Source of the DNA: Amphiscolops sp. MND2022
Lineage: Eukaryota
NCBI GenBank assembly: GCA_964187785.1
Contig: OZ076409.1
Location: 79,114,001 to 79,178,000, forward strand
DNA length: 64,000 nt
Reading direction: 5' to 3'
The notes beneath the pieces are model-generated. The model worked only from the letters and a program-made list of their open reading frames with translations, was not told the DNA's origin and did not search any database. The position numbers were made by a program, and so were the translations under genes. This document shows positions 17,897 through 64,000 of this stretch, piece by piece (position 1 is the stretch's first letter; every line of letters starts with the position of its first letter).

Positions 17897-19606
17897 TGTC
17901 GTGATTTTGTTCGTGTGCAAAAGATTCTACCGAACTTTCTCTAGACCTTAGTCTATTGCTTTCATGTGTATAACACATTTTGGGGCGATTTTCCCATGTT
18001 TTCAGCGGATTTTCTCCTCCTGAGTTCCATTGTAGCCCATTGGACCTTCGGTCCTCTTTGGTGAAATCTCCTTCCTTCGGGCTGGGATGTAGCCCGTTGG
18101 ACCCCCGGTCCATTGTAGTAAAATTCGTTTTCCTCTGCGTTTCCAGCGTATTTTGAATGGAAGGGAGTACAGTATCAGCTATTGCAGCTGATATTGCGTT
18201 TTGTATTTGTGAATTTAAACTAGACTTAATTTCATTCAACCTCCTTGACATTTGGTTGGAAATTTCTTCATTGATCAATCTAGTGGTCTCTACAGTAACT
18301 TCGCTATTCTCTCTACTATTAGTATTGAGTAAAGACCTAAAGTCTTCTCCTACTAGGTTTGGATTTTGGTGTAGTCTATTAGACCCTGAGTCCAAATTAA
18401 GTTCACTTTCGCTTCGTTCTGCTCTTTCATCATCCCTATCATAACTTCCGAGCATTATATCAACATTCTCTACGTCGGACATGATGTCCAATTGCCTAGA
18501 ACGCCTTTCTTTGGCTTTCTGTTTTCTAGTGGAAGGCATGGAGAAATCTGGTATTTTCAAATAGTCAATTGAAAACTATTTCAAACAACAGAACGTAGGC
18601 AAAATATTATAACAAATCAGTGATGCGAGTGTATTGCAAGTTGTATCGAGATCTATTGTTGTGTCCTTCGGACTGAAGGTCCCGGGTATATATACTTTGC
18701 ACTGCATGACACCAGTAATTTAGGCCGTCATGTTACTATTAATAGTTGATTCATTCCCGAAATAGACCCACGGGATGACGTCAATACTGCATCATTTTAC
18801 ATTTATGGTTAAAAATAGCATCAAAGCCAGGTTGATAGGTTAGGCGGTCTCGCCTCAGGGTCTACTTATGAAGATATTACAAGAATATGAGTGCATGTTT
18901 GAATGTTATGTAAAATACATGATCTTCTAAATATTACATGACATCCAGTCAAATAGACTGGTAATGTATTGGTAAACAACACTAAATTGGATCTAAATTG
19001 CGTCTAAACACTTAATTCTATTTGTAAGTACTAATTTAAATCAAAAGCACTATGGCGGACCACTGGTCCATGCGTCTACAGCACTTAGTACAGCAGTTTA
19101 ATGGTAACAGCAAACAATAATAGGACGGACCACCAGTCCGTGCGTCTACACTAAATGTACTTAAATACAGCGCTGTGATTGGTCAATGTATTGGATGACG
19201 CCGCGTACAGCAAGCTACAAGAAACGATCATTTGAACTCGTTTCCTGTAACCTGCTTACTTGTGCGTTTCAATTCAATTATTAAATTACAGCACCGTTTA
19301 TATTCTAACATTACAACAATTTGCCAATCTTTGACAAGTATTTCAACACAGATAAAACCAATATTAAAACATATTAAAAGTGACTAGTAATCCGTTTAAT
19401 TAATACAAAAGATTGTTGTAGCCAAATCGACTTAAGTTCGAATATGTGTGAAGTTAATTTACAATGCAACAGTAACATATATTGTTTGTAGGCGTTCGTA
19501 CCAATGGTCCATTGTTGATTAGATTGGTAATACTCCTGGTGGGGGTTAAGAGCGCTATTTCCTGGTATCTGATAGAATATTCCATCACAAGCGGCAGCTT
19601 GCGACA
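17897..19606 (-). repeat. 3' LTR of element A (1710 bp)
   Basis: Direct repeat of 32092-33802 with about 20 substitutions and one 1-bp indel counted by eye. Confidence 0.95.
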
Positions 19607-20327
19607 CTCCCCCTGGGACTAAAATCACACTTGCTGCTCTCATTCCTGCTTCAAAGGCGTCCCGGCGTCTTATCCGTTGAGCATAAGTTTCGCCAGGTAC
19701 GTGGGTCTGTTCCAAATCTCCTAGCGTCATTTCCTCTTGGATCATAGCGTAGGACTTTCCACACACAGTACAATCGCCATGCTGGACGTAATTTGCTTCT
19801 CCGCAAAGTTTGTTAGTACTGATCGCCAGTCCAGTGATGTGTTGGTTTGTTACCCAAGTAATTTCATTATCTTGTTCTGCTTGCCGCTGAGTATGGTATT
19901 GACCTTGAGTCGGTCCCTGATCGGCTAATGGGGGCGACATCGGTGAGTACGGAATTGTGTCGATCCGGCTACAAATCGCCATACGGTGATTCGGGTCTCC
20001 GTCCGCATAAGTCTGCAAAGGTGGGCTACCAATTACCTAATCTATCAGGCTGTCCAAAGGGTCAAAGGTTGAGCCAATTGATCCTGATGGGCCACATTGT
20101 AGGTAGTCTTAGTCTTCTCCACCAGTTGGTAGGTCAAAAGTCATAGCCCTACCGACCGTTAGCTGGGGAGGGTAACTTGGTGCTTCTCTACAGCATGCAA
20201 GTACTTCTATGTCACTGTCGTCGTCCAGACTTCGGTTAACTACGGTTGTGGATACCGTATCGATCTCCATGTCTTCATCAGAAGACTCATATAGGGCGCT
20301 GACCAAGGGTCGGATGAATTCCTCCAC
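19519..20327 (-). pseudogene. Element A sense accessory ORF3 (~269 aa, non-env); two premature stops and a 1-bp deletion
   Basis: ORFs 20327-20109 and 20018-> share a frame, with stops at 20109 and 20037. Homologous to the element B ORF at 50765-51550 (SPMSPP, CxVCGxS, RRxAxExG, VSQxAACDG). The 5' LTR copy, with an extra G, gives the ending PPPGVLPI*. Confidence 0.8.
19607..19614 (-). other. Polypurine tract of element A
   Basis: Minus-strand AGGGGGAG immediately before TGTCGC of the 3' LTR. Confidence 0.8.
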
Positions 20328-21376
20328 ATCAAATTAGAGTGACATTTTATTGCAGTAGCGTGAAAGGAAGATTTTCTTAGCAATTTTGTTGGATCAACTA
20401 ATTTGTGTCTTGAAAATGAGTAGAATAATTTTTCTAGTCCAATGGACCCTGAGTCTTCCCCAGATTGGCGGGAAGCGATTTCGCGGGGAAACAGGGTCGC
20501 ATATTCCTTAAATATTCCTAAACTCTTCCTTTTAAGTGAGGGTAAAAGGTTGATAAACATCATCAGTTGGTTGAGGGGCTCGTTAATAAGTCTATAAGTA
20601 CTTCTCATTTTGTTTGTTTAACAGCAGTCTCGTAACAATCGTCAATGAAAGCGTTAACTTGTCTAACTAATTGATAAATAATATTCGCCATCAAAGACCA
20701 CCGGTCTAAGCGGCTTCAGCTAAGACGTCAGCCAATAAGATGGCCATAATTAATGCAGTTGAAGACTGCCGGTCCAAACGGCTAGAGTCAACGAATTGAC
20801 CAATTAGACGCGTTTAATGAAGAATTAAGTAATTACAGTAATAATGGGAATAAAAATGAAGATGACTGAATAATAACCAAGATGTTTAAGATGGTAATAT
20901 TACCATATGGTAAATTATGTATGGTATCATGAATGTTGCTGGCAGGTCACAAACATGAAAGGTTTATATTAGATGATGATCAGTGTAATTGGATTCAAAG
21001 AAAAGGATTTTAGCCACGACATCCTGTACCAAGTGTAAAATAAATGTTTCAGGATTATTAGTTCGGTAGACTAGTTGAGTAAATCAGTCAGGTTGGAATA
21101 TTTTAGTAGTGTCATAAATATTACATACATATAGTCTGTGTTTGACGTACAGTATTCCGCAAAGCCTCTAACAGTTTACTGTTTTCGTCACGCATTTCCA
21201 CATTTAAATTGGATTATCAATTGAATTTTGAATTGCCTCAATTACTGTCGTCCTTCGGTCCACTCGACTACAGTACTTTGTGTGGATTATAAGCCCAGAA
21301 GCAGGCTATCGAAGAATTCCCTCTATCTCCAAAAGGACTAGCGGTCACTTGTGCCCTCAAATTCTGCCTCTACAAA

Positions 21377-24300
21377 ATGGAGATGACATCAGGTTGGTTC
21401 TTTAATTTGTCTTAGCATAAACTTGATCAGGGTTCTGCTTTGACTTAAGTTACTTCCTCCATCGTGAAATGTTTTCATATTGAAACATTGATTCCAACTT
21501 ACTTCCGGAAGATTTTCAAAATGCGGCAAAATGGATTCATATTCACGAAGTCAACCGCGTAAATTTATTTCTTTCCAATTAGGCGAAGAAAAGAACGGCC
21601 AACCGACACAAGATCCCAAAGTCATCGAGACTGAGGACAATTCCGCCCAAACTGCTGCTATGGAAACCAATCCAATAGTGTCTGATGAGCAATCCGAGCT
21701 GCAAGCTGAGCCAGAGGACCAAAGGGCCGAACAGCTACAGCAATCCCCTAGCCCTACCCTGATTTCCAGGTTTCTAGCCACAGACAGCAGCGGGTCTACT
21801 GAAAGTTGCCGAACTTACATCACCTGTAAGATGAGTCAATTGGAGGAAGCTGCGGCAAAAGATTTTGCTGAGGTCACTGAAGCTGCCCAGCGTGAAAGCA
21901 TTAGCGAAGCCATGGAAGTTACCGTTAACCCCGAACAGTCCTCCTCTGGACAAATTCAGTCTTCCTGTCGACCACAGGTCATATTCCTTGACCCTCCAGA
22001 TTCTCAGACTCATGGCTCACAAACAGGACTAGTTGGGCCTTCATCCAAACGTTCCCGTAGTTCTCTTTCCGAATATGGTTCCTCAGTCGGAACTGAACCA
22101 GCTCTTAAAGACTTAGTGGCCGCCACCCCAGGTCAGACTGGAGTTCCATCATCAAACAGTCCTCTACCACCTCCACCCCTCTTTGGGGACCAGAGTGGGT
22201 CCGAAGTTGACCGAGCGTCAGACTCTGAGTCCGGACCAAACGCTGGCTCAACTCTAGCCGACGCATTGAAGACTGTTCATGACTGCAGCCTCCCTGTGTG
22301 CAGTGATCAATCCAGTGTAGCAACCCCTTTCGATCCCCCACGCGAACCCAGAGACGTCCCCTTAGGCGGAAGAAGCCGAGCTCTGATCAAGGAACACTTT
22401 GAAAACAGTGAACGAATTCGTTTCCCACCTGGGCATCCAGTCGTTGCCTTCACTGAAAGCCAAATCTCAGCTGTCATGCGAGCGGTAGCAGATGAGACCA
22501 CTAGGGCGTCGTATGATATGCTCGAAAATCTTGTTTATCGAGCCAGTCGATTATCTCTTGCCTCCAGGCCCGGGGGTACCAAGTCCAGCAAGGGAAGTTC
22601 TTCCAGAAGAGGCTCCTCTGTTGTTACCAGTGCAGGAAGAAATCGTTCCTCTTCCACCGAGAGGTATAGCAAAACCAGTGGGGCATTGCAAAGTAACGAC
22701 GACTTCGGAAGCCTTTGATATTCTTTCGAGCATTCTGACGCTGAAATGCAGATTGGGCGGTCCCCATATGGGCCGATGCCTGGGTCTAGCCGAACGGACC
22801 CGCAGTCCCCCCAGACTACTTTCAACTTGGACAGTCCTGGACTACAGACGCTTGCTGCACTAAGGAAAGAAGCAGTTGCAGATCGACAACAGAAGAAACG
22901 GTCCACAAAAGCTAAAGGGAAAGGGCAATCTGGTAGGGGCACTTCTGCACGTGTGAAGACCACAAGGACTTGCAAAGTCATGAAAGAAGCGTACTTCCGC
23001 GGAATGGAATGGACAAGGACTTTTGTTTCTGGCCCTGTAGACCCGAAGTGGAATAAGTACAAATTTTACTGCCAGATTTGCAAGGCTAATATCTCCATCT
23101 ATTCCAAAGTGGCCCGAGAGATCCTGAGACACCATTCGACAGAGAAACACCTCCGAAAAGATCAACGATGGAGGTATGAGTACCTGTACAAACTCGACCC
23201 CTGTACGAACACTCGGATTCTCCAAGTCAGAGGTAAAGATGGAAAGCTATTAACGCCATACGAGCTGGCTATCGAACTTCCCCGTTTCAAGGACGTTGAA
23301 TTGGTCGACATCGGGGAAAAGCTCCCCTTTTATGACGAGTACATGGCCGGTGCAGATCATATGTCCTCCTCCTCAGAGAACCGTGCCTGTATTCAGATCT
23401 CGGTGCTGGGACGTTTTCTCCCTAACTACGGAGATATTGACATCCTTCGTAGCTTCTGGAGGGACATAGGAGTAGTAGTGAACCACCAGGCACTATTTAC
23501 GGACTTCAATTGGACTAAAGAGCGTCTTACAGTTAGTATTCGTTAACTGGAGTTATTGAATCCTCCATACCAAGTTCTTAGCTACTTAACTTTCAAACTA
23601 GCTGTTCTATAAGCCTTAGGACCTTTGGTCGATTTTCCTACAATCATTTTGATCATGCCACATGTTTCAGGCCCTGTTCCATCACATGTTCCTCGAGGTT
23701 CTGAATGATGTGGGAAATCACATTCTCACAAGCAACGAGTATGCTCTGGAATTTGCTAATGACGGCATCTTCTTATTGGTATTTGTGAGATTCTGGATGG
23801 GCAACGAGATGTGCCGAGTGTTCCTCAAAAGGACTGGGAGGGCACATGGCCAGACCCAAGCTGAGATCTCGTTGATCTCCTGTGTGATGGGAGCCATATC
23901 AACCAGTCCTGAGATCATCAGCATCAGCGGCTGCATTTCAAATACTGTACAGTTACTGGATGACAGCCCTTATGGTCAATTTTCCGTACAGAGTCCACCG
24001 CGCTTCGAAGAACTCCAACTGAGGTCTCTAATGCACAAGAAAGACTCAAGTGTCTTTGGACACATCGATATGTTTGGGGTCCTACACCATCTCATCGCCT
24101 CTCTGGGACTGGAATTAGAACAAGAATGGGTGATAATCTCCCCAGAATTATCCAAGGTAAACTTCGTTTCCATTAGGTGTTGATTTTCCTTTAGGGTTTC
24201 TCTGCATTGAACTATTTGTTGTAGGCGATCAGGACTTGTCAGTTAGATATCAATGGTCTACCTACCCTGTGCCAGGAATTGCTGAAACACTGGCCCCAAG

Positions 24301-25767
24301 TCATTGCGTATCTGTCGCAACACTCAGTCACCCAGGGCATGCAAGGCGTTCGAAAGCAGGTTGAGTATTAGAAGACTTCTCTGGTTTTCTAATCTAAGTC
24401 TATAATGAGCCTCCCATTTTATGTAGTCAAAAGGACCCTTGGTCCGTAATAGCTAATCTACTTCTCAAAGTCTGTAGTAAGCCAAGGTGTATGAAGGTTG
24501 AGGAAAGTCGCATTTATCCTTAAGTAAATCATTGTCTTTTTGTTGTTATAGCCACAGAGTCTTGATTGGACGTTGGTGTACGACGAGTTCTTTCCTGCCC
24601 GCTTGGAACTATTCTATCGACTAGTACGGGACTACGTCAACAGCTTCGTGGTGAATCTAAAGCAGCGACGGGACCGAGGGTTCCATGTGTTCAGGGAACT
24701 TTGCCAGTTTCTCTTCAAGTTGGGACGACGATGTATCAAGTCCCCTAATCTGCCATCTGAGAGCGACTATCGTAAGATTCTGAATCTTTCTATTCCGGAC
24801 GTCAAGGCGCTAAGTACTGCAGATTTTCTGTCACGCTCAAAGCTTGACGTTAGAATTGCCCCTGCCTGCAAGTCCAAGGCTGAATCAGAGAAGGGAAAGA
24901 AGAAGAACGAAGGACTGACTCTGGACACCATTATCGCCAATTGTAAAGAAGAATTCGGGCGTAATGCCAGGAGCTATGTGATTTTCCTTTTCAAAGGGAC
25001 TCAAGGGCTAAGTCGTTTTACTTCTGACATTGTCAGGGGCTTGGGTCCTTCGACTTGGATGTGATGCTAGTGGATCCATTGGAGAATGCGATTTACTGTT
25101 TTAAGCAGCTGTTCACTAGTTTCCTGCTCCGTGGTGTATTTCAGGCCGATGAGGAATCCATCTTTATTGAGGAATACTTGTCGTTCCTCGATATCATAAG
25201 ATCTTCCCATCCTGACATTCAGCAGCCAAAACTCCTCATTGCAGACGCCATTCATTTTGTGTCTAGTCAGGAATCTCTAGCGTCTCGCCCCCACTTGCGG
25301 AGGATTTTCCGCCTAAGTTGCCTATGCCTTGATGAGCCTCGAATGTCGTTTACACCCGTAAAGTTTGGATCCCACCGGACTGACGATCCACTTAGTACAA
25401 TGTTCGACATCATCGCACCAATTCAATCCTTCCTGGGATATGTCGGCCATGGGTTAGATGTCCTTACTTCAGATGCGTCCGTGTCTCGCTTCCTGTCCTG
25501 GAGCAGTCTTTCGGGAACTCTGGTTTAAGTGACCTTTATAGCCCTTGGGACAGCGTCGACCACTTTGGGAAGACCCAGATTCGAGAGAATTTGGAATCAA
25601 AGGAGGCGGGCAGTCAGTCTGGACCGCAGGTCAACTCAGCTGCGGAAGAAGCCCCCATGCAGTCCTTCCCAGTTCCCAAGCCAGGCAAACGCCATAGTCA
25701 CTTGCTGAGCGAAGAAGAACTGACGGAATCAGCGTCCCGATTGGTGGCTGAATCTAGTAAACGTTAA
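21377..25767 (+). pseudogene. Element A antisense spliced gene, hAT-transposase-like/BED-finger protein (~1267 aa); exons 21377-21392, 21583-23531, 23671-24156, 24225-24359, 24552-25767
   Basis: Four GT-AG introns join the ORF pieces in frame at the same positions and phases as in element B. Cx2Cx16Hx5H finger at 23070-23150. Lesions: TGA at 22716 and frameshifts at ~25046 and ~25498. Confidence 0.85.
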
Positions 25768-25931
25768 TTGTGCTATATGTACAATTGTAACTTAGACTCC
25801 TTTGTAAATACTCTTCAGTTTCTTATTTATTGTTTGTCTATTTTAGTCAAGTTGTTTGGTTTAGCAGTCAGTCGAGTCCCAAAAAGATACTATTTATTAT
25901 TTGGCAGTGGGACTGTAATTTAAATGTCTGA

Positions 25932-28900
25932 CTAGTATCTGTATTCATCAGTAAAGTTGGGGGTGGGGTTAGGACGAAGGTTTTATCTTCCTCCCCTGGG
26001 GCTTTTATTGTCTACAATCACATCATCATTTTCATCATCTGGTACTTCGGGCACGATAGTATCTCTCCCTCCTGATGATTGTTGATCATCAGTCTGGTCA
26101 GTAAGGCGGTCCGGGCACGTTTGTTCGGTCATATCAACGTCGTTATTTTGGTGTGGCCCAGTGGACCCGAGGTCCACGTCAGTGAAAACTTCTCCTGGCG
26201 AGCTGTCAACATCCACGAGGTCATTAGAAGCGTCTGTGGCGTCTAGGTTCGTAGGAAATGTGGCTTTTTCGGCCGAATTGAGAAATTCTCCAAAGGTGGT
26301 TTCCCACGTAATAACGTACAAGTCGTCTTGCGGGATAACAATTTCGTCATCCTGTTGCAAGTTGCCTTCCGGTTAAATATCTTGTAGATCGGTGTTCGGT
26401 TCGTATTTACGCAATCTGATACGGTGTAGGATCTGTGTTTTATTGGAATTAAGTTTCCTGACAATGTAATTCTCATTCGGTAATACCTTTTCTACTATGT
26501 AGGGTCCAGTCCACCGGTATTCGCGAAACGGTATTTTTGATCCTTGGTGGTCAGCAATAGGTTGTAATATAAAACAATAGTCATTTAGTTTCAAAGGTGC
26601 TGCTTTTGCCTTGCGATCATAGTATTCCTTGTATTTCAAATAGGATTGCATGATGTTTTTCTTCGTGGAGTCCATCAGTATTTGTGTTCGTCTTTGAAAT
26701 TCATCTGCAAAATCTGTAGTCGGAAGGACCTTGGGGTTCGGATTAAGTCCCAATTTATGATCAGGAATATTATATGGAATACGTCCATGAAAAATTCTGG
26801 TTGGTTCGCAGCCCAGGGTGGCGTGATACGTCGTATTATAATTTAGGACAGCTAAAGGTAGATATTTATGCCATTGTCGCCTATAGTCCCCTGAGGCCAT
26901 TTTTAACTTTGTTTTGAGGCTGGCGTGTGTTCGCTCAAGTTTGCCAATGGTTTGTGGATGTTTTGTAGTCGCGCATTTCATTTGGATTCCCAAAATTTGA
27001 GCGATCTCAGCCACCAACTTGGACGTGAAGGCCGTACCTTTGTCTGTAATCAAGGTAGTGGGCAAATAGGTGTGCTTGGTCATTATATCAATGATGACTT
27101 TTGCCGTATTTATGGCCGAAGCGTCCGTGACTGGATAGGCAAAAAGATATCTTGAAAACACATCCATTGCAGTGATGATATTTTCGTATCCAGCTTTTGG
27201 TGGTAAGTTTGGTAACAAATCAATTTGCATTGCATCGTCTGGTCCTAGGTCCCATTCAGGCAAATTGAGGAGTTCAGGGGTAACGGATGAATTGGGAATT
27301 CGTTTGTCCTTGATACAAATTTCACATCCCTGAACCCATTTTTTGATAACTTTCGCAATTCCTGGGTAATAATATTTTTGTCGAATTTCGATAAGCATCT
27401 TGGATATGCCTGGGTGTTTAGTTGCTTTCCCATGTAAGGATTCAAGGAGTTCTGCGACTAAATGCTTTGGCAAGAACACCTGATTGTATTTAACTGACCC
27501 TGTTTCATCAAAATACTGCCTGGTGATGATTTCATCTGTAACGGACAGTCGGTCCATTTGGCGACAGTAATGTTGGTATCGATTGTCTTGCATTAGTATG
27601 GACTCTGAGTATTTTTCTTTGAGTATTTTGAGTCGTAGTTGTTGTAAAATAATGTCGTTGTTTTGTTCGACTGCTATGGAGTTTATGCTGGTTAGTTTTT
27701 GGATTGTGGAAAGTTTGTGGTATTGGCTTTTATGTGTTGTGAATTTTTCGAATGAGATATCTGGTAGTTGATGTGCTGTGTGGGCTCTAGCGTCCTTTTT
27801 GCGTTGTAGGATTTGTTCTTCCGTCTCGTCGTCGTCATCCGTGTAGAAAATTTGTTCTTCCCTCTGACACTCCCGCCGATTGGACATGTAGTTCAATCGG
27901 TGTTGTTGGAATATCTTCTCTTATCCTGAGGATCAATTTTTCTTTTGGAGAGATTTCGAGTCGGGACAAATAGTCTGCGGCAGTGTTGTTTTTGCCTGGT
28001 ATGTGAGCAATGGTGAAGTTGAACTGAATGACGTAGTCACATGCGTTCCATAGAGTTGGAGGGATGATTTTTGTTTGAAAAAATCTTGTGACTGATTTGT
28101 TGTCTGTAAGTATAATCACCGGTTTCGGGGTTCCCCAAAATATGTGTCCGAATTCCTTGAAGGCAAAGAAAATTGTCAGGAATTCCTTTGCGTAGATGGA
28201 CATTTTCAATTGGGTAGGACTAAAGGTCTTGGATCCGTAAGCTACTGGTGCGAAAGCTTTCCTCGTAGAGGTATATTTCTTGAGGGGATCATCTTCGATG
28301 AGAACCGCGTACCCTGCAGCCGAAAAACTAGCGTCGGTCATAAGGGCTATTTGTTTGTTCGGTAAAGGTTGTTTGAGTGCCAGTTCACAACATCGGTCAA
28401 GAGCCTTATTTATCTCGGTGAATTTCTCCAGGAGGTCCGGAGTAACCAGGACTTTTTCATCTTTTGTAAGCAATTTGAAAAACGGTGTTAGTTTTTCTGA
28501 CAGCCTTGGGATGTAGTTCCTGTAATAGTTTAAGAATCCCAAGTAGCGTTGAAGTGCTTTATTGGATTTTGGAAATTTGGTATTTTCCAGGAAATTTTGG
28601 ACCCGTGGTCTCTGCGGCTTCACTCCCGCAGGAGTGATGGTACGTCCCAGAAAATCAATTTCCGTTGCGCCAAAATGGCATTTATGCATCGTGAGCTTGA
28701 GACCGGCCTTTTGTATGCATTGGAATGTGGCCCTCAGGTTGTTGATGAGTTGTTCAGCATCGTTGGCAGCGATGCCAATATCATCGACGTATTGGGCACA
28801 TTGGTCTGCTTTGATGACTTTGTCTAAGTATTCGCGCATAAAGCTAGAGAAGGCCGATAGGGCTCTGCTGAGTCCCTGTGCCAATCTTCTGTACGCAAAG

Positions 28901-30971
28901 GTTCTGCTGGCGAAATTGAAAGCAAGCATTTCAATGGACCGTTGGTCCGCCATTTGTAGGCAATGGTATGCTTGGGAGCAGTCTAGCTTACAAAATAACT
29001 TCTTCCCGGCCATATGTTGGTCTGCATTGGTAAGCGTGCTCACTGGATGGTTGTTGTTGATATAATCATCCGAGATAAGATTGTTAATCTTGCGCAAATC
29101 GACTAGAAGTTGCAATTTACCATTGGGTTTTTTCTGGGCAAATATTGGGCTTGCATATTTGGAAAATGGGAGTGTTGTAATGATCCCATAACGATGTAGT
29201 AGTGCCAATTCTACAAGGATGTCCTCTTTGAGATTGATTGGCGTTGGCAAACTCTGACTATAAGCTGGGGAATCGTCTTTCGGCGTCAGTTTGACCTTGA
29301 AGTCTTCGTTCATGCCTATGTCAAATCGGTGTCTTGCAAATATGTCGTGAAATTCGACAAGTAAATCTTCTATGCGAGCTATTTCAGCTGGTTGTAGCAT
29401 AGAATCTGTCCAATCAAAATTGGACAAAAATTGTTGTCTGGACTCAGGGTCATCCTGAGGATTAAGTTGCTCTAATTCCTGAAGGTTGATGAGTTCTGAT
29501 TAAATCCGTTTCTGGATTGGTGTATGATGCTGAGGGTCCCCAGGGTCCTCTGGTGTTGGAAACCAGTAATTTTCCTTGAAGTCCTCAGGTTTATTAGACT
29601 TGATCAAGCTACTTGCATAGTAAGCAGCAGTTTCAGGATTGTCCTGCAAAAGGTGCCATGTGGTCACTGGGTCAATGGGTTTGACATATTTCATCTGTTC
29701 TGGTGTAAGGACAGTGAAATTAGCAACCTGTGTGCCTCTTTTGAGGGTATACGGACTGTCGGTGAAGTTGTTCAGATGAACCGAAACTTGACCATTGGTC
29801 AATGTGACTAGAGCAGCACAGAAAGCGATATCGCCATCATCTGTAAGCGTGTTGCTCGGTTGAAGGATCCCGGTAACCGTAGTGTCTTCGAACAGTTGTG
29901 ATGCCAGCTGGACCGATTGTCGGTCATTAGGTGGGATGGTTACATCCTCTCTAATGCAAATGAGTTCCATGACGTTAGTGTACTTGTGGTCGGCAGTTTT
30001 GAGCTGCATTGAGAAGAAAGGAAAATTTAGGACGCCTTGTCGCATGTCCAGAATGGTGTTATTCCTTTGAAGGAAGGAAAGACCAATCAATGGGCTAGTG
30101 AGCTTTTCCATGACTATGAATATCTCGTGGAATTCTATGTCGCCAACTTCAAACTTCAGCTCGACTGTGCTCTTCGGAGTCTCCAGCTGCCCATTAGCAA
30201 CCATAATTTGGAAGTTGGGAGCCGGGCCCTCTTTGACAATAGACTGAGGGGCTAGTAGTCGGATTTTACGTAGATCAGCTTCTGGGATTGCGCTAGATAG
30301 AGCTCCCGTGTCTACAAGGCCATCTAATGTTAGTTCGCCAAAATCCATCGGAAAATAGAGCATTCCTCGTTTGTATTTAAGGCCAAGATTGGTTGTCAAC
30401 GGTACATTGTCTGGTTCGCCAGTCCTCGTGATTAGAGTGTTCACGAAGCGCGCGGCAACTGCTGTAGCCAGAGAGACTTGTGGTCCCACACGGTGAAATT
30501 CGTTGTCAGGCCCATTGTGGGTCATTTGACATTTTGGCGGTGTGTCATTTTGCCATGGGTCAACTCGTGCTTGCGCAAGGACCACATTCAAGGCTTTGTC
30601 ATTGTCATAGGAATCTGGTTCTTTGACGTGACTCGGTTTGTTAAAATTACGGTAGAAGTATAGATGATGTTGATTGTAGCAATTAGCGTCCCAATAGGGG
30701 TCAAAACCATAATCAGGATCAGAGTAGTATGGGCTATAGTCATCAATGAGGGGTAAAAGCCGTATAGTAGTAGTATCGTGCTGTAGTCTGTTGGACATAG
30801 GGTCCAAAGTGGTGTGGGAGGTAGGTGGAGTCTTCATCTGCTGCTGCCAGTCAGCTGATGGTGTGTCTTTATGTGAGGTATAATTTTCAGTATAATAGAC
30901 GTTTAAGGGGTCTGATATTATGTATTGTCGAACACGGAGCTTTTCATTAAATTGGAGTCGTGGCGAATCTA
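25932..30971 (-). pseudogene. pol: Element A pol (protease, RT, RNase H, integrase)
   Basis: LVDTGA protease; YVDD RT; TDAS, TDN and ADYLSR RNase H; HHCC zinc finger, D-D-E core and GPY integrase. Stops at 29500, 26373 and 25983, and a frameshift at ~27865. Confidence 0.95.
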
Positions 30972-30978
30972 GTTTTTT
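30972..30978 (-). promoter_or_regulatory. -1 ribosomal frameshift heptamer A AAA AAC at the gag/pol junction (element A)
   Basis: gag ends CCA AAA AAC TAG. The -1 frame reads LDSPRLQFNE... without a stop into the pol ORF at 30837. Confidence 0.8.
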
Positions 30979-32077
30979 GGGTTTTTCAAAATGGAGGTCG
31001 GTTGTGTATTTTTTGCGTCGTCTTTGCTGGTGGACGTATGAGCGGCGGTAGTGTCCTCCAGTTTAAAGTTTTTGGGCTTGAGGTGGGCTCCGGCGCCTTT
31101 CCAACATCGTTCCGCCGGGTGGTTCGTTTTGTCGCAAGTTGGACATTTTGGATACTCTTTCTTGGTAACCTGCCCGTCATTGCGGCGTTGTTCCTCCTTT
31201 CGTTTAAGTTTTAGGCATTCATCCTTGACATGTCCGGGTTTTTTGCAATAGTTGCAGGTAATGTTTGGATCGATGCCAGAGGAAAGAAGGCCAGTTCCCG
31301 GTCGTGTTGCTGTAGGGGCAGTGGACATTGTTGGTACTGGAATGTCATCCCCCTCCTCAAGTCCATTGAGTTCAAGCTCACGTTCTAAATGGGTGACTAT
31401 CTCCTCGTATGTAGCGTTTTCAAGTCTAGCCATATTGACTGAGCGTTTCAGTTTTGGTGGCAATTTGGCATAAAGGAGACTGTCAATCATGGCCTGGGCG
31501 TTCTCGCCAAACGCTTTTTCAGCTCCTTGATTTAATTTCTCAAGGAAGTCTGGCAGTTTTATGGTGTTTGGGTCGAACACCAATCTGTGCCATTTGTGTT
31601 TGGCGGTCGCCTGGGACTCAGGTTTGACGTATTTCCGGCGAAATACTGCCAAAATGTCTTCCAAGGTCTGCCTGTTTGCCGTATTAATGTTGCGGAAGGT
31701 TTGTAACGCATTTTTGCGTAACAAGGAATGAAAATGGTTTATTTTCATTGTTTCAGTCATGTCAGGCTGCATTTTTATCATAGTGTGAAAGAGATCTTCG
31801 AAAAGTTCAAATTTCCCTGATTTGCCGTCAAACGTCAGTGTAGTCCTGCTGACTGGGCGTACCATCAGTGTTTGTGCTGATGGACGGTTATTCATGCCGA
31901 CCAATACTTCTGCTAGACGGTTGATGGGTCAGTGGAAGTAGTTGTTTTTGTAGTCTCGTGGACCGATGGTTCCGGGTCCTGTGGCTCTTCATTAGTGGAA
32001 TTTTGATGTTGCAGGGGTTCACGGGGATGCATGGGCCGTCCAGTGAGGAACTCAGGAACCATACGGGGGTTAGAGTT

Positions 32078-32091
32078 GGCTCCTGTCACCA
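32078..32091 (-). other. Primer-binding site of element A
   Basis: TGGTGACAGGAGCC directly after the 5' LTR end CGACA. The first 12 nt are identical in element B. Confidence 0.8.
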
Positions 32092-33802
32092 TGTCGTGAT
32101 TTTGTTCGTGTGCAAAAGATGCTACCGAACTTTCTCTAGACCTTAGTCTATTGCTTTCATGTGTATAACACATTTTGGGGCGATTTTTCCATGTTTTTAG
32201 CGGATTTTCTGCTCCTGAGTTCCATTGTAGCCCATTGGACCTTCGGTCCTCTTTGGTGAAATCTCCTTCCTTCGGGCTGGGATGTAGCCCGTTGGACCCC
32301 CGGTCCATTGTAGTAAAATTCGTTTTCCCCTGCGATTCCAGCATATATTGAATGGAAGGGAGTACAGTATCAGCTATTGCAGCTGATATTGCGTTTTGTA
32401 TTTGTGAATTTAAACTAGACTTAATTTCATTCAACCTCCTTGACATTTGGTTGGAAATTTCTTAATTGATCAATCTAGTGGTCTCTACAGTAACTTCGCT
32501 ATTCTCTCTACTATTAGTATTGAGTAAAGACCTAAAGTCTTCTCCTACTAGGTTTGGATTTTGGTGTAGTCTATTAGACCCTGAGTCCAAATTAAGTTCA
32601 CTTTCGCTTCGTTCTGCTCTTTCATCATCCCTATCATAACTTCCGAGCATTATATCAACATTCTCTACGTCGGACATGATGTCCAATTGCCTAGAACGCC
32701 TTTCTTTGGCTTTCTGTTTTCTAGTGGAAGGCATGGAGAAATCTGGTATTTTCAAATAGTCAATTGAAAACTATTTCAAACAACAGAACGTAGGCAAAAT
32801 ATTATAACAAATCAGTGATGCGAGTGTATTGCAAGTTGTATCGAGATCTATTGTTGTGTCCTTCGGACTGAAGGTCCCGGGTATATATACTTTGCACTGC
32901 ATGACACCAGTAATTTAGGCCGTCATGTTACTATTAATAGTTGATTCATTCCCGAAATAGACCCACGGGATGACGTCAATACTGCATCATTTTACATTTA
33001 TGGTTAAAAATAGCATCAAAGCCAGGTTGATAGGTTAGGCGGTCTCGCCTCAGGGTCTACTTATGAAGATTTTACAAGAATATGAGTGCATGTTTGAATG
33101 TTATGTAAAATACATGATCGTCTAAATATTACATGACATCCAGTCAAATAGACTGGTAATGTATTGATAAACAACACTAAATTGGATCTAAATTGCGTCT
33201 AAACACTTAATTCTATTTGTAAGTATTAATTTAAATCAAAAGCACTATGGCGGACCACTGGTCCATGCGTCTACAGCACTTAGTACAGCAGTTTAATGGT
33301 AACAGCAAACAATAATAGGACGGACCACCAGTCCGTGCGTCTACACTAAATGTACTTAAATACAGCGCTGTGATTGGTCAATGTATTGGATGACGCCGCG
33401 TACAGCAAGCTACAAGAAACGATCTTTTGAACTCGTTTCCTGTAACCTGCTTACTTGTGCGTTTCAATTCAATTATTAAATTACAGCACTGTTTATATTC
33501 TAACATTACAACAATTTGCCAATCTTTGACAAGTATTTCAACGCAGATAAAACTAATATTAAAACATATTAAAAGTGACTAGTAATCCGTTTAATTAATA
33601 CAAAAGTTTGTTGTAGCCAAATCGACTTAAGGTCGAATATGTGTGAAGTTAATTTACAATGCAACAGTAACATATATTGTTTGTAGGCGTTCGTACCAAT
33701 GGTCCATTGTTGATTAGATTGGTAATACTCCTGGTGGGGGGTTAAGAGCGCTATTTCCTGGTATCTGATAGAATTTTCCATCACAAGCGACAGCTTGCGA
33801 CA
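32092..33802 (-). repeat. 5' LTR of element A (1711 bp)
   Basis: Direct repeat of 17897-19606, followed by the PBS on the minus strand. Confidence 0.95.
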
Positions 33803-48452: not shown

Positions 48453-49103
48453 ACTATATTGTGCCTAAAACTGAAAATTTCAAGCATTAATTAATGAAAA
48501 TTAATCCCTCCCTTTTAGCACTGGATAATCCGTGTGGGTAATTCGTAATTATTCGACGAGGTTGTACTCAATTATTATTCGACGAGTTAATTTTCGACCA
48601 GTTTTCCGCCCTTCAATTTCGACGATATGTTTTCGACGAGTTGCATTCGGCGAGTTGTTTTCGACGAGTTTTCCGCGTACCGCGAAATACAATTCAAATC
48701 ACTGACATGGGACCAAAAAAAGTCGGAAATTATATAAAACACTGCAATAAGGTCTAAATACACTTGGAATAAGATATAAAAAGTCAGGAATAAGATCTAA
48801 TAGCACTGCTACATCTAGAATCTCTACAAAAATATGCTCTTCTAAAAGAGACACAGTGGCTATCAAGAGACACAGTGGGACTGTGGCATTTTTCGTTGTC
48901 TGTTACAACAGAAAACTTCCAACGGAGAACCCTTCAGGGTAAACAACAACTTCTTCCTAACTGAAAATATCACAAAAACCCGATATTGTGGTTTGTTACG
49001 AAACATTTTTGTTCGAAAAAATCACACAATGCCGAACTTACCTAAAAGTGAAAACCTCCTTTATGATCACTATATCAATAAACTTAAAACATTATATTAC
49101 ACA

Positions 49104-50853
49104 TGTCATGAACATTACGGTGTGTTTTATCACCGTGTTCATTATTAAGAGTAGATTTAGATTTCGCGTTGTACTGAACTTCGGAGTAACTTTCCGGTCT
49201 CTCTCAGATCTCTCCCATCCCCGTCTAGTCTCCTGTCCTGAACCGGCCATAATAACGTTTTGAATTTGGGGCAAAACTTGGTTATTGATGGCGTCACTTA
49301 TGGCTCTCTGGATTTGAGAACTAACACTGTTCATCATCTCATCCATCTCCCTAGATATTCTAGAGTTCAGTTCACTCGATAACTTATTGATCTCAGCCTG
49401 AGAGTCTATACTCGCTGAATTTCGGTCATAACCGGCACTAGTCCCAGTTTCTGGATTTCTATGGTCAGAATGGAGATTCATTTCCTCATTTTCTAAGTTA
49501 TTACTTGCAACACTTTCTTGCCTTCTAATGGAAGTTCCATCGAGGCTTTCATCTCTCCTCATGTCACTGAAGTGGTTTTCACCTAACATTATGTCAAGGT
49601 TTTCAATGTCAGAGAGAATTTCTAATCCTCTAGATTTCCTTGCTTTCTTCTGCTTCCTTGTAGTAGGCATTAAGACTGAATCGGGTTGAAAACTTGACTT
49701 ATCAATTCCGGAAAATTAACAGTGTAACCGTTTGTATTATGAACGTCTTTATCAAAAGAGAGAAGCACAAAGTATGAGTCTTCCTGCAGGGGTATGGGTA
49801 TTTATACCCCTGAAAGTATGACACACACATTTTTACATATTTTGATCAAGACAAATCATAGAATTTTACAATCAACATAGGAAAATCCCCGACAACTACA
49901 TATTTCCGGGGGACATTTAAGGAATGGCATTCAGAGTCATCATTTTAAGTAGCAACTTCAAACAATTTATCGGTTAGACCTACTTCAAGTGTGATGTAAA
50001 CAAATACCACAGCCTGCATATTTTATGGCAATGTAAAATGAAGGCACGTGCCGGCACAAGTTTACTGCAAATTAGGCTGAAAACGGAATGTATTACTATG
50101 TGTGGAATTCTAATACTGCATCGATATTCACGAAAATACACTCGCATATCAGAGCCGGAATGGGCCCAAATCCATAACATGTACTGCGCATAGGAAAGAC
50201 ATGGTAAAAGGCCTTAACCGTCCCTTTATCCAAGTTAAAAGTATACAAACATCAAAACATCACAAACGTATTTATTTAGACTAAAAACATGCTTCTAATA
50301 ACTCGGCGTAAGTATTGATCCAATTAGGCAACAAAGGTATCATTATGCTCGAATTGGCCGAAGCCGTCCATTTGACTGGGGGACTGATATAAATTAGCAC
50401 CGCTTAGTCAATTGGCCATATCCGGCCATCATAAATAAAGCACTCATAATTAGCAAAAGGAGAGCTCTGATTGGCTAATAACTGTACTGAAAGTTACATC
50501 GCCGAGAAGGGACGTTTTCTTACTTGAACACGTTTCCTTCTCGCGATCAGCCTGCTTATTGTACGTTACCGCTTTGATTAATTTCAACACTCTATTTGCA
50601 ATACACCGAACTTCCTTTTACAAATCTCAAATCACAACCTGATTTGGATAGCTTCAAATCGTAATTTTAACAGACTAATATCACGAACAATTATATAAAA
50701 ATGCACTTGAATAAACAAAACGAATGTGATTAACTAGTAAATATAAGTTTCAGTAAGGGAAAGATTAAAACGTGGGTAGGGTACCTGGGACAATTTCTTG
50801 ATTTTCCGCTGACGTCGTTATTAATGTGCCGTCGCAGGCGGCAGGCTGCGACA
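49104..50853 (-). repeat. 3' LTR of element B (~1750 bp)
   Basis: The outer end TGTCATGAAC is confirmed by the copy at 63426. The inner end (TGCGACA, 50853) is inferred only by homology with element A, and the adjacent sequence is not a clear PPT. Confidence 0.7.
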
Positions 50854-51550
50854 CTGCGGGTGTTATGAAGAGGAATGCCCCGGCGTTGAGACCGTTCTCA
50901 TATGCTTCTCTTCTGATTTCCGTGATGTACTCAGGCTCTCCTCGCGGCTGGGACCTTGCAACATACCATTCTACTTTCTCTTTCTTTATTGCTTCTGAGG
51001 ATCTGCCACACACCATACAACCAGAATACAGTTTGTTGCTTACGTCCTCGTACGGCCTTGTGTTCTGTACGTGGAACGACGCGTGAAAACCACCCATTGT
51101 ATGCTGCATCAGGGGGGTGTCCAAACTTGGCCCTCTCTCATGGTCAGGCGGTGACATGGGTGACTCTGGCACTGGTAATAGAGTCTTGCAAACCTCTATC
51201 CTTGACTTTCCCAACTTCTTTGGGGGAGCATAACACATCTCCTGGTCAAAGTACCTGTGGTCAAATTTCGGAGTCACATCTGTTCGCATCTGGGAAGAAC
51301 TGGGGCCAGCTTCTGGTTCGTCTCCTGAAGGTTCCTCCATAGTCATTATGCAGCCCCCAATTAGCATGGGGCTGGAGGTGACTTCCCTTTCGATTCTTGC
51401 AATAAGTTGCTCCGTGTATGTGGAGCAGTCGGTTTCCCAGTCTGATGACTCTTCCTCACTGCTGGAAATGTATATCACTGACCTTTCAGAATCATCTGAG
51501 TCGTATTCCTCCAGATCGAACAATCTTCTAGCTAAGTTGTATTTGCTCAT
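50765..51550 (-). CDS. Element B sense accessory ORF3 (261 aa, intact, non-env, acidic N-terminus, CxxC)
   Basis: Open 261-aa frame homologous to element A ORF3. No signal peptide or transmembrane segment is evident. Confidence 0.8.
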   Translation of the reverse strand: MSKYNLARRLFDLEEYDSDDSERSVIYISSSEEESSDWETDCSTYTEQLIARIEREVTSSPMLIGGCIMTMEEPSGDEPEAGPSSSQMRTDVTPKFDHRYFDQEMCYAPPKKLGKSRIEVCKTLLPVPESPMSPPDHERGPSLDTPLMQHTMGGFHASFHVQNTRPYEDVSNKLYSGCMVCGRSSEAIKKEKVEWYVARSQPRGEPEYITEIRREAYENGLNAGAFLFITPAVSQPAACDGTLITTSAENQEIVPGTLPTF

Positions 51551-55400: not shown

Positions 55401-56858
55401 AGGAAAACCAAGGAGTCCACAATAAGGTTATATCTCTTTTATGGTACTTATTTCCTTTAGGAGGAGTTCATGCTAATTGCCACCCTTTTGGTAATGTGGG
55501 TAGGGTTATTTGTCTCGTATTCCCCCGTGTCTTTCGCAGGTCCAGAGTTTTGAGTGTTCCCTTATCATGGACAATTTCTTCACCGCCAAATTAGAGCTGT
55601 TCCAGCGCCTGGTCAGCGATTGTGAGCATTTCCTATTTCGTGATAGTCACTTTGGTCAGTTGTCCTTTTAAGGACCTTTAGATTTTGTTTTTCAGACGTC
55701 ACCAGTTTCGCTATCAATCTAGCTCAAAGACGGGACGCTTCCTTCTTCCTGTGCGGAGAGATATGCAGGTACATCAATCGTCTCTGTTTTCGTGTTTTCC
55801 GACCCGACACCGTGCCATTAGACAATGCCTGGTTTCTGTTAATGGACTTCCAGCTTGGCCAAGGCACACTCATGGACGATGAAGACTTCCTGGTGCGTCT
55901 TAAGATAGCCAGCAGAGTTGCCACTGCCTGTAACCTGAAAGCAGCCGGACTCCACTTTAACAAAAAGTCCAGTAAGGCAGCCATTGCCAAAACAGCTGAA
56001 GTTGCGAAGTCAGATTTTGTGTCCAGCGCCAAGAACTTTTTCAAATTTCTGTTGTCAGAGGTCCTCCAACACACAGAGCTCACTTCTGACCTTATCAAGG
56101 GACTAGCCGCGTTCGATCCCTTTGTTTTTTTCCAAAGGCCTGTGGAAGTCGCCTTACGCCATTTCGACTATTTGTATTCGACATTCCAGTTGCGTTGCTG
56201 GGTCTCTGCATCGAATGAGTCAGTTTGCCGAGATGAATATGTGGCCTTGTTGGACTATCTCCGTACCAATCATTCCACCGAATTCGGTTCCACTAGTCAT
56301 TCTCCTGACCTCATTGACTTTTTTATGGGTTTAGATTTCCTTCAAACCCACGACCACATTTGAAACTTGTTCAAGTTGAGCTGTTTGTGTATAACATCTG
56401 TTAGCCCCCAGTATCCCCCAGTGTCTTTTGGAAAGATTGACACGAGAGGACTTCAGTCCCGTTTGACAGACGTTATCTTGCCCTGCCAGAGTTACTTGAC
56501 ATCAGTGCCTGATTCCCTGCTTGCCTGTTGCACTGAGTCCCGACTTGAGAAGTTCTGTCATTTGTCCACTTCGTTTGGACAATCAGGTTTCGCCGCCGAT
56601 TATGACCCTTGGACCTTCGTAGACGGTTTCGGCAGTTCTGCTATTTACAAGACTCTTGTGGCATCTTATCGTTCTGTTCTCGCTGGGTCAGACTTCCATT
56701 TTAGGAGTCCCACTCTTCCTGATGTTTCTTCTGTGCAAGACGCACCTGCTGTCAAGTTGCCTAGTGAAAACAAACGTAGACGGATGAAAAGGAGTTGTTC
56801 CCGTAGTAGATCCTCATCTGTCATTGAAGAATCCCCTGCTGATAGCTCTAAAAACTAA
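52434..56858 (+). pseudogene. Element B antisense spliced gene, hAT-transposase-like/BED-finger protein (1281 codons); exons 52434-52449, 52649-54612, 54710-55195, 55292-55426, 55540-55621, 55696-56858
   Basis: Five GT-AG introns; exons sum to 3846 nt in frame. Cx2Cx16Hx5H finger at 54151-54231. In-frame stops at 53053, 53239 and 56361. Confidence 0.87.
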
Positions 56859-63993: not shown

Positions 63994-64000
63994 TAAGACT
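63426..64000 (-). repeat. 5' LTR of element B (partial)
   Basis: Direct repeat of 49104-49677, with a few substitutions and one 1-bp indel. Confidence 0.93.

What the first reader, a model, noticed from the sequence alone, without database searches (positions are those of the whole stretch)
21377..25767. Gypsy retrotransposons carrying an antisense, intron-containing gene that looks like a catalytically dead hAT DNA transposase
Seen: elements A and B are diverged (non-coding LTR parts not alignable by eye). Both carry, between pol and the 3' LTR and on the opposite strand, a gene of about 1270-1280 codons. Four GT-AG introns sit at matching positions and phases, and three exon sizes are identical (16, 486 and 135 nt). 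The proteins align through a Cx2Cx16Hx5H finger (FYCQICKANISIYSKVAREILRHHSTEKH / VWCHMCKKNFSIKTKGTVEILRHHRKEKH) and on to the C-terminus. Inference from recalled hAT/ZNF862-type patterns: the finger is BED-like. YALEF...LLVFVRFW...CRVFL resembles the first RNase-H-fold strands (FSLxxDES...LxxxVRY...xxFL) with the catalytic D absent. IISISGCISN matches the second-Asp region, LIKGLAAFDP resembles the hAT LxxLDP motif, and PHLRRIFRLSCLCL resembles the start of the dimerisation domain but lacks the SA.ER.FS glutamate motif. Established: introns on the antisense strand are not removed from the genomic RNA, so they survive reverse transcription. This suggests a class I element lineage that captured and repurposed a class II transposase, perhaps as a DNA-binding regulator, anti-silencing factor or targeting factor. 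I know of no description of this arrangement but cannot search.
Basis: partly seen in the sequence, partly recalled or inferred. Interest (0 to 1): 0.95.

Follow-up and report, generated by a model that had tools for sequence, protein, structure and literature searches.

The report
Retrotransposon carrying a disabled DNA transposase
A very abundant family of copy-and-paste jumping genes carries, on its opposite strand, a spliced and conserved gene that looks like the enzyme of an unrelated cut-and-paste jumping gene with its normal cutting site lost, suggesting that one kind of mobile element has tamed another's enzyme as a helper protein.

Summary
Confirmed and extended. Both Ty3/Gypsy elements carry an antisense multi-exon gene (about 1,267 and 1,281 codons) tail-to-tail with integrase. 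The host genome gives 7,166-7,739 first-look candidates per exon query. All 8 families examined keep the gene beside integrase, and the two co-diverge (Mantel rho 0.72, 574 of 40,320 permutations). The conserved core is under purifying selection (dN/dS 0.15 and 0.14; shifted frames 1.7 and 2.9). Three introns are precisely absent in different relatives, which supports the junctions; no RNA run was listed. Pfam and profile comparisons do not detect hAT. Two separately folded exons each put Hermes first in one search, in the right order (last exon VIA rank 1 of 48,161, Z 6.3; exon 3 Foldseek rank 1, E 0.036). These scores are modest, so hAT-superfamily origin is likely (~0.8), not proven. By-eye register gives E/G/none for D-D-E. 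Best reading: a dead transposase kept as a DNA-binding accessory regulator of the element (function ~0.5, untested). Antisense accessory ORFs are known in plant Gypsy elements; my searches found no hAT-derived, intron-bearing case. Corrections: B has a fifth intron; exon 1 is uncertain.

The parts
17897..19606 (-). Element A 3' LTR (1,710 bp, TG...CA)
   Evidence: 21 mismatches in 1,709 aligned bases against the 5' LTR; 5-bp target-site duplication GTCCC at 17892-17896 and 33803-33807
32092..33802 (-). Element A 5' LTR; the gag frame starts inside it
   Evidence: primer-binding-site-like TGG... follows at 32068-32091 on the minus strand
25933..32461 (-). Element A gag-pol (broken by stops and frameshifts), ending tail-to-tail with the antisense gene
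   Evidence: about 70% DNA identity to B gag-pol; pol stop about 165 nt from the antisense stop
19377..20348 (-). Sense ORF3 of A (acidic N-terminus, CxxC); reads through the polypurine tract into the 3' LTR; head-to-head with the antisense gene; broken in this copy
   Evidence: 27% identity to B ORF3, E 1e-16; dN/dS 0.41 over 45 pairs
20349..21376 (.). Non-coding spacer, probable bidirectional internal promoter (CCAAT and AAGATGGC motifs; factor names recalled)
   Evidence: motif hits at 20737 and 20798; promoter activity not tested
21377..21392 (+). A exon 1 (16 nt, uncertain; alternative in-frame ATG at 21531)
   Evidence: donor GT in 9 of 10 copies; conserved with B
21583..23531 (+). A exon 2: poorly conserved low-complexity N-terminus, small conserved module, basic stretch, C2H2 finger (23070-23150), helical segment; stop at 22716 in this copy
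   Evidence: dN/dS 0.26 for the N-terminal part
23671..24156 (+). A exon 3 (486 nt): RNase H-like core
   Evidence: model of the B counterpart matches Hermes from about residue 149
24225..24359 (+). A exon 4 (135 nt)
   Evidence: 135 nt of coding sequence in 8 of 8 families
24552..25767 (+). A exon 5 (intron 5 absent): helical domain resembling the Hermes insertion and C-terminal region; frameshift near 25030-25060 in this copy
   Evidence: model of the same exon from another A-family copy: top VIA hit Hermes 8edg_A residues 338-605, Z 6.3, rmsd 7.2, 183 aligned
25768..25932 (+). Short T-rich 3' region with repeated TGTA motifs, shared terminator zone with pol
   Evidence: 2-5 TGTA in the first 90 nt and 41-47% T in 8 of 8 families
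49103..50853 (-). Element B 3' LTR (inner end inferred from similarity to the A LTR end)
   Evidence: 98.6% identical over 577 bp to the LTR starting at 63425
50768..51550 (-). Sense ORF3 of B, reading into the 3' LTR
   Evidence: no Pfam family
52434..52449 (+). B exon 1 (16 nt, uncertain; alternative ATG at 52597)
52649..54612 (+). B exon 2 with finger at 54151-54231; stops at 53053 and 53239 in this copy
54710..55195 (+). B exon 3 (486 nt), RNase H-like core, folded directly
55292..55426 (+). B exon 4 (135 nt)
55540..55621 (+). B exon 5 (82 nt), followed by intron 5 (55622-55695), which A lacks
   Evidence: GT in 30 of 30 and AG in 30 of 30 B-family copies
55696..56858 (+). B exon 6; stop at 56361 in this copy
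57374..63999 (-). Element B gag (62302-63999, starting in the LTR) and pol (57374-62311: protease, RT, RNase H, integrase)
   Evidence: Pfam; best PDB match Ty3 Gag-Pol, E 7.6e-45

Best explanation
An ancestor of this Gypsy lineage acquired a whole hAT-superfamily transposase gene (from a nested DNA transposon or a host gene derived from one) in reverse orientation between pol and the 3' LTR. Being antisense, its introns are not spliced out of the genomic RNA and survive reverse transcription (established logic); occasional recombination with spliced RNA would explain the exact intron absences (inferred). The gene lost terminal repeats and the D-D-E triad but kept the zinc finger, the RNase H scaffold and the helical domains. 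It is probably expressed from an internal promoter shared with a small sense ORF3 (inferred). Most likely job: a nuclear, sequence-specific DNA-binding accessory protein that binds its own element and keeps it transcribed (activator or anti-silencing factor). Shown: gene structure, linkage, selection, co-divergence. Supported but modest: hAT fold. Inferred: loss of catalysis, expression, function. Odds: hAT-superfamily origin about 0.8; not an active transposase about 0.85; regulator role about 0.5.
For: dN/dS 0.15 (A, 45 pairs of 10 copies) and 0.14 (B, 435 pairs of 30 copies) for the core, 0.10-0.12 in the most diverged third of pairs; shifted frames 1.66 and 2.87. Integrase end 163-243 nt downstream and opposite in 8 of 8 families. 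21 of 23 A-family integrase hits have a listed cassette beside them. Mantel rho 0.72, 574 of 40,320 permutations. Exact intron absences: intron 5 in A, intron 4 in L079, intron 2 in P0368 and P0364. Exon-3 model has helix, three strands, helix, strand, helix topology. For it Foldseek ranks Hermes first (4d1q, E 0.036, probability up to 0.97) and VIA aligns 131-143 of 162 residues to four Hermes entries (114 to a fifth) against about 70-120 for other folds. The last-exon model ranks Hermes first of 48,161 chains, at residues 338-605, downstream of the exon-3 match. Atlas leads for finger plus exon 3 are hAT-associated families (DUF659, DUF4371, ZBED1, zf-BED) at 0.78-0.83, a lead only. No Asp at the candidate first position (E in 46 of 57 rows); G in 53 of 56 at the candidate second position; no conserved acidic residue at positions 263-275 of the last exon.
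Against: All structural scores are below the tools' own confidence marks (Z under 8, Foldseek E above 0.001). In the wide VIA search of exon 3 Hermes ranked 22nd by Z (5.5), behind actin-like, Argonaute and integrase folds. Foldseek on the last exon found nothing better than E 1.2 and no Hermes among the rows shown. The atlas gave no hAT lead for the last exon. Pfam finds no hAT family; zf-BED appears in only 2 of 87 rows, best E 0.11. Profile comparison with 8 hAT ORFs of the same genome was not significant. Catalytic positions were mapped by eye. Near-invariant acidic residues remain (two in strand 1, one in the G-x-I-D motif, two after the L-C-L motif), and VIA maps the end of the exon-3 model onto Hermes up to 567-573, the helix that carries E572, in a low-confidence part of the model. 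Nothing here tests DNA binding or regulation.
Confidence: 0.6

Rival explanations
1. Same origin, but the protein works at integration: it binds host DNA or chromatin through the finger and tethers the pre-integration complex, or helps nuclear entry of the cDNA.
For: The finger region is the best conserved part across families (59-93% identity), which fits a fixed host target. hAT proteins bind DNA ends and subterminal motifs (PMC10368747, passages). A role in nuclear import is proposed for plant antisense ORFs (PMC7264820).
Against: A separate antisense transcript gives no obvious route into the particle (inference). Insertion-site bias was not tested.
Confidence: 0.2
2. The protein is a remodelled but still active nuclease or metal-binding enzyme with a non-canonical acidic site, acting on cDNA ends, RNA/DNA hybrids or competing elements.
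For: The RNase H-like exon is under strong purifying selection, and several acidic residues are near-invariant. The G-x-I-D helix may occupy the third-catalytic-residue site in the exon-3 model.
Against: Gly at the candidate second position in 53 of 56 rows; the first position is replaced by Ala, Val or Thr in some families including A. Hermes needs D180, D248 and E572 (PMC2533014, passages).
Confidence: 0.12
3. The ancestor was not hAT but another RNase H-fold protein (Mutator-type or other DDE transposase, an integrase duplicate); Hermes scores best only because it is the nearest solved structure of its kind.
For: Integrases and actin-like folds tie with Hermes by Z for exon 3; no sequence-level hAT signal.
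Against: Two separately folded exons hit Hermes in colinear order. Hermes gives the longest alignments. A C2H2 finger precedes the core as in hAT, and all ten best atlas hits with a family share a family or clan.
Confidence: 0.15
4. The cassette is a passenger: independent nested insertions, or a neutral hitch-hiker.
For: None found; the two window copies are broken.
Against: dN/dS 0.14-0.15, same position and orientation in 8 of 8 families, co-divergence with integrase, no framing inverted repeats.
Confidence: 0.02

Closest known systems
Antisense additional ORFs of plant and fungal Gypsy elements (Retand TRP28/PF04195, maize Grande gene23, rice RIRE2, Botrytis Boty); PMC11963269, PMC7264820
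   Same: Conserved gene between pol and the 3' LTR, antisense, kept in most copies, own internal promoter and nuclear product (Grande), proposed DNA-binding regulator.
   Different: Those papers report no similarity to other transposons and call the origin unknown; PMC11963269 does not use the word intron. Here the gene has 4-5 spliceosomal introns, about 1,270 codons and a hAT-like architecture, in what appears to be an animal genome.
hAT transposases (Hermes; PDB 4d1q, 8edg, 2bw3)
   Same: Order of C2H2 finger, helical segment, RNase H-like core and helical C-terminal region; colinear structural matches.
   Different: No D-D-E triad by the register used, no terminal inverted repeats or 8-bp duplication, long added N-terminal region, no Pfam hAT hit, resides in a retrotransposon.
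Host-domesticated dead hAT genes (DAYSLEEPER; PMC8616336, passages; ZBED/ZNF862 recalled)
   Same: hAT scaffold with finger kept, DDE and terminal repeats lost, under selection for a new role.
   Different: The domesticator is another mobile element, not the host; the gene is in very many copies and moves by reverse transcription.
Transposon-encoded anti-silencing and accessory factors (VANC21 of VANDAL, PMD in Gypsy; PMC8616336; rotifer ORF3 DEDDy/GDSL, PMC5408684)
   Same: Extra gene carried for the element's benefit; possible functional analogue.
   Different: Unrelated folds; the rotifer ORF3s keep their catalytic residues and are shared among retroelements rather than taken from a DNA transposon.

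Membership tests
Ty3/Gypsy LTR retrotransposon (the carrier) | Two LTRs with TG...CA ends and a short target-site duplication | tested here: met
   A: 1,710-bp LTRs, 21 mismatches, 5-bp duplication GTCCC
Ty3/Gypsy LTR retrotransposon (the carrier) | pol order protease, RT, RNase H, integrase, with Ty3-like RT | tested here: met
   Pfam order in B pol; best PDB hit Ty3 Gag-Pol, E 7.6e-45
hAT transposase superfamily | N-terminal BED-type CCHH/CCHC zinc finger | tested here: inconclusive
   Cx2Cx16Hx5H kept in 37-39 of 39 rows; zf-BED in only 2 of 87 rows, best E 0.11; finger not folded
hAT transposase superfamily | RNase H-like catalytic fold | tested here: met
   Topology of the exon-3 model; all top VIA and Foldseek hits are RNase H-like, Hermes longest; mean pLDDT 62
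hAT transposase superfamily | Large helical insertion domain and C-terminal region | tested here: inconclusive
   Hermes 338-605 is rank 1 of 48,161 but Z 6.3, rmsd 7.2; not recovered by Foldseek or Pfam PF05699
hAT transposase superfamily | D-D-E catalytic triad | tested here: not met
   By-eye register: E in 46 of 57 rows, G in 53 of 56 rows, no conserved acidic residue at last-exon positions 263-275; register not statistically supported
hAT transposase superfamily | Intertwined homodimer | tested here: inconclusive
   Complex prediction returned no verdict
hAT transposon (as a mobile element) | Terminal inverted repeats and 8-bp target-site duplication around the gene | tested here: not met
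   No inverted repeat pair frames the cassette in A or B; the longest pairs are 70-90% chance-like matches at unrelated places
Antisense pol-3'LTR accessory ORFs (Retand/Grande type) | Conserved antisense ORF between pol and the 3' LTR in most copies | tested here: met
   8 of 8 families; 21 of 23 A-family integrase hits
Antisense pol-3'LTR accessory ORFs (Retand/Grande type) | TRP28 (PF04195) domain | tested here: not met
   No PF04195 hit
Antisense pol-3'LTR accessory ORFs (Retand/Grande type) | Transcribed from its own promoter | not testable with these tools
   No RNA run was listed

The most novel reading that the evidence does not exclude
A retrotransposon lineage has domesticated a complete, intron-bearing class II (hAT) transposase as its own chromatin factor, and this factor (with ORF3) protects or targets the element well enough to help explain its very large expansion in this genome: domestication between transposon classes as a route to anti-silencing or targeting in an animal.
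Probability: 0.45. Interest if true: 0.92.

Novelty: new variant of a known kind. Interest (0 to 1): 0.82.

Why it matters
Antisense accessory genes of LTR retrotransposons have been described for decades with unknown origin; the two reviews read here say no similarity to other transposons was found (PMC7264820, PMC11963269). This case gives one a traceable origin in a DNA transposase and shows that transposase domestication, known from hosts, can be done by another mobile element. The antisense position also shows how a retroelement can carry an intron-rich gene, and the exact intron differences between families make a natural test system for intron loss through spliced RNA. With dozens of diverged families under selection, the protein's DNA target and partners are directly testable.

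Tried and rejected
No hAT signal at sequence level: Pfam on window ORFs and on 87 and 48 aligned relatives, PDB profile searches, hhalign against 8 hAT ORFs from the same genome (best probability 0.26%). Foldseek on the last-exon model gave nothing under E 1.2. The viral structure library gave no hit under E 0.001 for exon 3; a viral hAT-domain protein was rank 11 with the highest TM-score shown (0.41). The atlas search of the last exon gave unrelated helical proteins. Homodimer prediction: no verdict. Related loci: none confirmed in JGI metagenomes, viral contigs or phage records. Earlier scan notes: nothing on this genome or sequence; one unrelated hAT note. Literature: ten searches, aimed directly at a hAT or inactive transposase inside Gypsy, returned 0 papers. 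Repbase, Dfam, GyDB and subscription journals (e.g. Steinbauerova 2011) were not searchable. The host group was not determined; an acoel paper (PMC6451197, passages) was read on a guess and not used. Within-family variation in the segment before the exon-2 acceptor was too low to decide between exon 1 and the inner ATG. Alignment A5 was not folded because exon-2 tails misaligned.
Full report
Setting. The window lies in a 1.07-Gb eukaryotic assembly (G000, 1,929 contigs). An amiloride-sensitive channel gene and a CUB/LDL-receptor protein in the window suggest an animal; the group was not determined. Two minus-strand LTR elements are present. A spans 17897-33802 with 1,710-bp LTRs differing at 21 of 1,709 positions and a 5-bp target-site duplication. 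[quoted passage not shown]

The observation. The plus-strand gene is there. A has five exons (16, 1,949, 486, 135, 1,216 nt) and B six (16, 1,964, 486, 135, 82, 1,163 nt); all nine introns are GT-AG. Among 10 A-family and 30 B-family copies, donors of introns 2-5 were GT in every copy. Acceptors of these introns were AG in every copy except 2 of 30 at B intron 3. Exon 1 is less secure. Its donor is kept in 9 of 10 and 26 of 30 copies, but an in-frame ATG 52 nt before the acceptor begins a peptide conserved across the exon-2 alignment, and this 'intron' is more conserved in DNA than the others in family A (0.023 against 0.053-0.075) and alignable between A and B. It may be promoter, 5' leader or an alternative start. 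Both window copies are broken (A: stop 22716, frameshift near 25030-25060; B: stops 53053, 53239, 56361).

Abundance and linkage. Protein queries from single exons gave 7,569, 7,739, 7,267 and 7,166 first-look candidates in G000, of which only 106-150 were scored per call; these are not copy numbers, but indicate a very large family. In one search, 137 of the 150 best matches had no stop inside the match (my count; biased to best hits). I fetched short stretches from six further families whose exons 3-4 differ from each other and from A and B by 37-66% of residues. All six have the 135-nt exon-4 sequence, five have a 486-nt exon 3 (one copy is frameshifted; it also has a degenerate intron-5 donor), and all six have the integrase C-terminus on the opposite strand about 160-245 nt downstream. 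Of 23 A-family integrase hits, 21 lie beside a cassette listed; the other two sit 1-3 kb from another integrase copy and look like internal duplications. Cassette and integrase distances correlate across the 8 families (Mantel rho 0.72, 574 of 40,320 permutations; DNA 0.62, 1,413 of 40,320). This uses only 47 integrase residues, so it is consistent with joint inheritance rather than proof. No inverted repeats frame the cassette.

Selection. Pairwise comparisons of natural copies give dN/dS 0.15 for the A core (45 pairs, about 542 codons) and 0.14 for the B core (435 pairs, about 554 codons), falling to 0.10-0.12 in the most diverged third of pairs. The N-terminal part gives 0.26 and 0.31, A integrase 0.39 (at lower dS), and ORF3 0.41. 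The same B DNA read in shifted frames gives 1.66 and 2.87. Pairs are not independent, but the contrast is large.

Introns are real, indirectly. No RNA run was listed. However, three introns are absent at exactly the predicted junction in different relatives: intron 5 in family A (and, by protein sequence, in related families), intron 4 in L079, and intron 2 in two database proteins, P0368 and P0364. The region after the stop is T-rich with 2-5 TGTA motifs in 8 of 8 families, as expected of a 3' end (motif meaning recalled). P0368 is at most 44% identical to anything scored in G000 and P0364 comes from a JGI contig, so the gene family probably extends to other species; their genomic context could not be fetched. 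All listed database relatives are unnamed (119, 110 and 120 listed; 446 representatives at E up to 0.001, 150 listed).

What the protein is. Sequence methods fail: no hAT Pfam family, no PDB profile hit, no significant hhalign to 8 hAT ORFs of the same genome. Structure is more telling. Exon 3 of B, folded with 45 sequences (mean pLDDT 62), has RNase H topology. Foldseek ranks Hermes transposase first (E 0.036, probability 0.80 and 0.97). VIA gives Hermes Z 5.5-6.5, tied with integrases, Argonautes and actin-like folds and only 22nd in the wide search, but with the longest alignments (131-143 of 162 residues in most Hermes entries, rmsd 4.0-4.8, starting at Hermes 149-153). The last exon, folded separately from an open A-family copy (48 sequences, mean pLDDT 69), returns Hermes as rank 1 of 48,161 chains (Z 6.3, rmsd 7.2, 183 aligned, residues 338-605), although Foldseek missed it. 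Each score alone is below the tools' confidence marks. The weight comes from a family named in advance appearing first for two separate exons in the right order, behind a conserved C2H2 finger, with a concordant but weak atlas lead. I put hAT-superfamily origin at about 0.8.

Catalysis. Hermes needs D180, D248 and E572 (PMC2533014, passages). Aligning strands by eye to hAT ORFs of this genome (a forced alignment agrees for the first strands but is not significant), the first position is E in 46 of 57 rows (Ala in A), the second is G in 53 of 56, and no acidic residue is conserved where the third is expected. The CxxH and TRWNS motifs (names recalled; seen) also appear degenerate. Against certainty: several other acidic residues are near-invariant, and the last helix of the exon-3 model aligns to the Hermes region around residue 570, so a remodelled site cannot be excluded.

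How it most likely works. The genomic RNA is the opposite strand, so the introns are carried intact. An internal spacer of about 1 kb, with CCAAT and AAGATGGC/AAAATGGC motifs in both elements (both motifs are enriched in the window over shuffles but also occur elsewhere), separates the gene head-to-head from a sense ORF3 and is probably a bidirectional promoter. A protein that keeps finger and scaffold but not the triad is best read as a DNA-binding adaptor. I favour a role in keeping the element transcribed (about 0.5) over integration targeting (0.2) or residual nuclease activity (0.12). None of this is tested.

Comparison with what is known. Antisense ORFs between pol and the 3' LTR are known in plant Retand, Grande and RIRE2 and fungal Boty elements; their origin is described as unknown and without similarity to other transposons (PMC7264820, main text read; PMC11963269, abstract, background and passages). 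Dead hAT proteins domesticated by hosts (DAYSLEEPER) and transposon-encoded anti-silencing factors (VANC21) are known (PMC8616336, passages). Spliced but non-coding antisense transcripts occur in Arabidopsis Copia elements (10.1101/2024.04.02.587720, passages; supplements closed). Rotifer LTR elements capture enzymatic ORF3s (PMC5408684, passages); a review of giant transposons had no such case in the passages seen (PMC6431247). Hermes domain roles are from PMC10368747 (passages). Ten literature searches, two aimed directly at this combination (0 papers), found no hAT-derived intron-bearing gene in a Gypsy element; repeat databases and closed journals were not searched.

Verdict. A real, selected, lineage-wide accessory gene of Gypsy elements, probably a disabled hAT transposase. 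It works like the plant antisense accessory ORFs and like host-domesticated hAT proteins, is not a member of the TRP28 family and is not an active hAT element. New variant of a known kind, interest 0.82.

Noticed in passing
window:19377-20348 and 50768-51550 (minus): A third, sense ORF (about 260-320 codons, acidic N-terminus, CxxC) reads through the polypurine tract into the 3' LTR in both elements; 27% identical, E 1e-16, dN/dS 0.41, no Pfam family.
   Followed up: partly
window:62302-63999 and 17844-18575 (minus): The gag frame starts inside the LTR and crosses the primer-binding site; gag gives a weak DUF1759 hit (E 2.7e-5), a family I recall from BEL/Pao elements.
   Followed up: no
L012 (G000:C1:79182273): A near-identical copy of B's cassette lies 14,323 bp downstream, equal to the LTR spacing, so B is part of a tandem array sharing an LTR; similar 14.5-kb spacings appear on C12 (three copies) and C2.
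   Followed up: partly
window:21393-21582 and 52450-52648: The proposed intron 1 holds DNA blocks conserved between A and B (including TTCCGGAAG, found only at these two places in the window) and an in-frame conserved ATG; may be promoter or a signal on the genomic RNA.
   Followed up: partly
window:22360-22540 (A exon 2): A small conserved module of about 60 residues inside the otherwise divergent N-terminus, kept even in the distant P0368; possible partner-binding site.
   Followed up: no
window:37635-42268 (minus): A non-LTR retrotransposon with RT, RNase H and an ORF1 with a C1/RING-like finger, broken into several frames.
   Followed up: no
window:42814-46254 (minus): Amiloride-sensitive sodium channel (ASC) frames interrupted by a CUB plus LDL-receptor frame, an unusual domain mix if it is one gene.
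   Followed up: no
window:2-1849 (plus) and 7595-8305 (minus): A 616-codon open frame and a 237-codon frame in a strongly A-skewed region, neither with a Pfam family.
   Followed up: no
L041-L070: The genome also holds many ordinary hAT transposase copies (2,215 candidates, 150 scored over the Pfam cut-off), some with open frames of 600-700 codons; none was detectably close to the cassette.
   Followed up: partly
window:9912-10267, 17780-17896, 33805-34069, 48026-48248: A dispersed short repeat family flanks element A on both sides, so A inserted into one of its copies.
   Followed up: no
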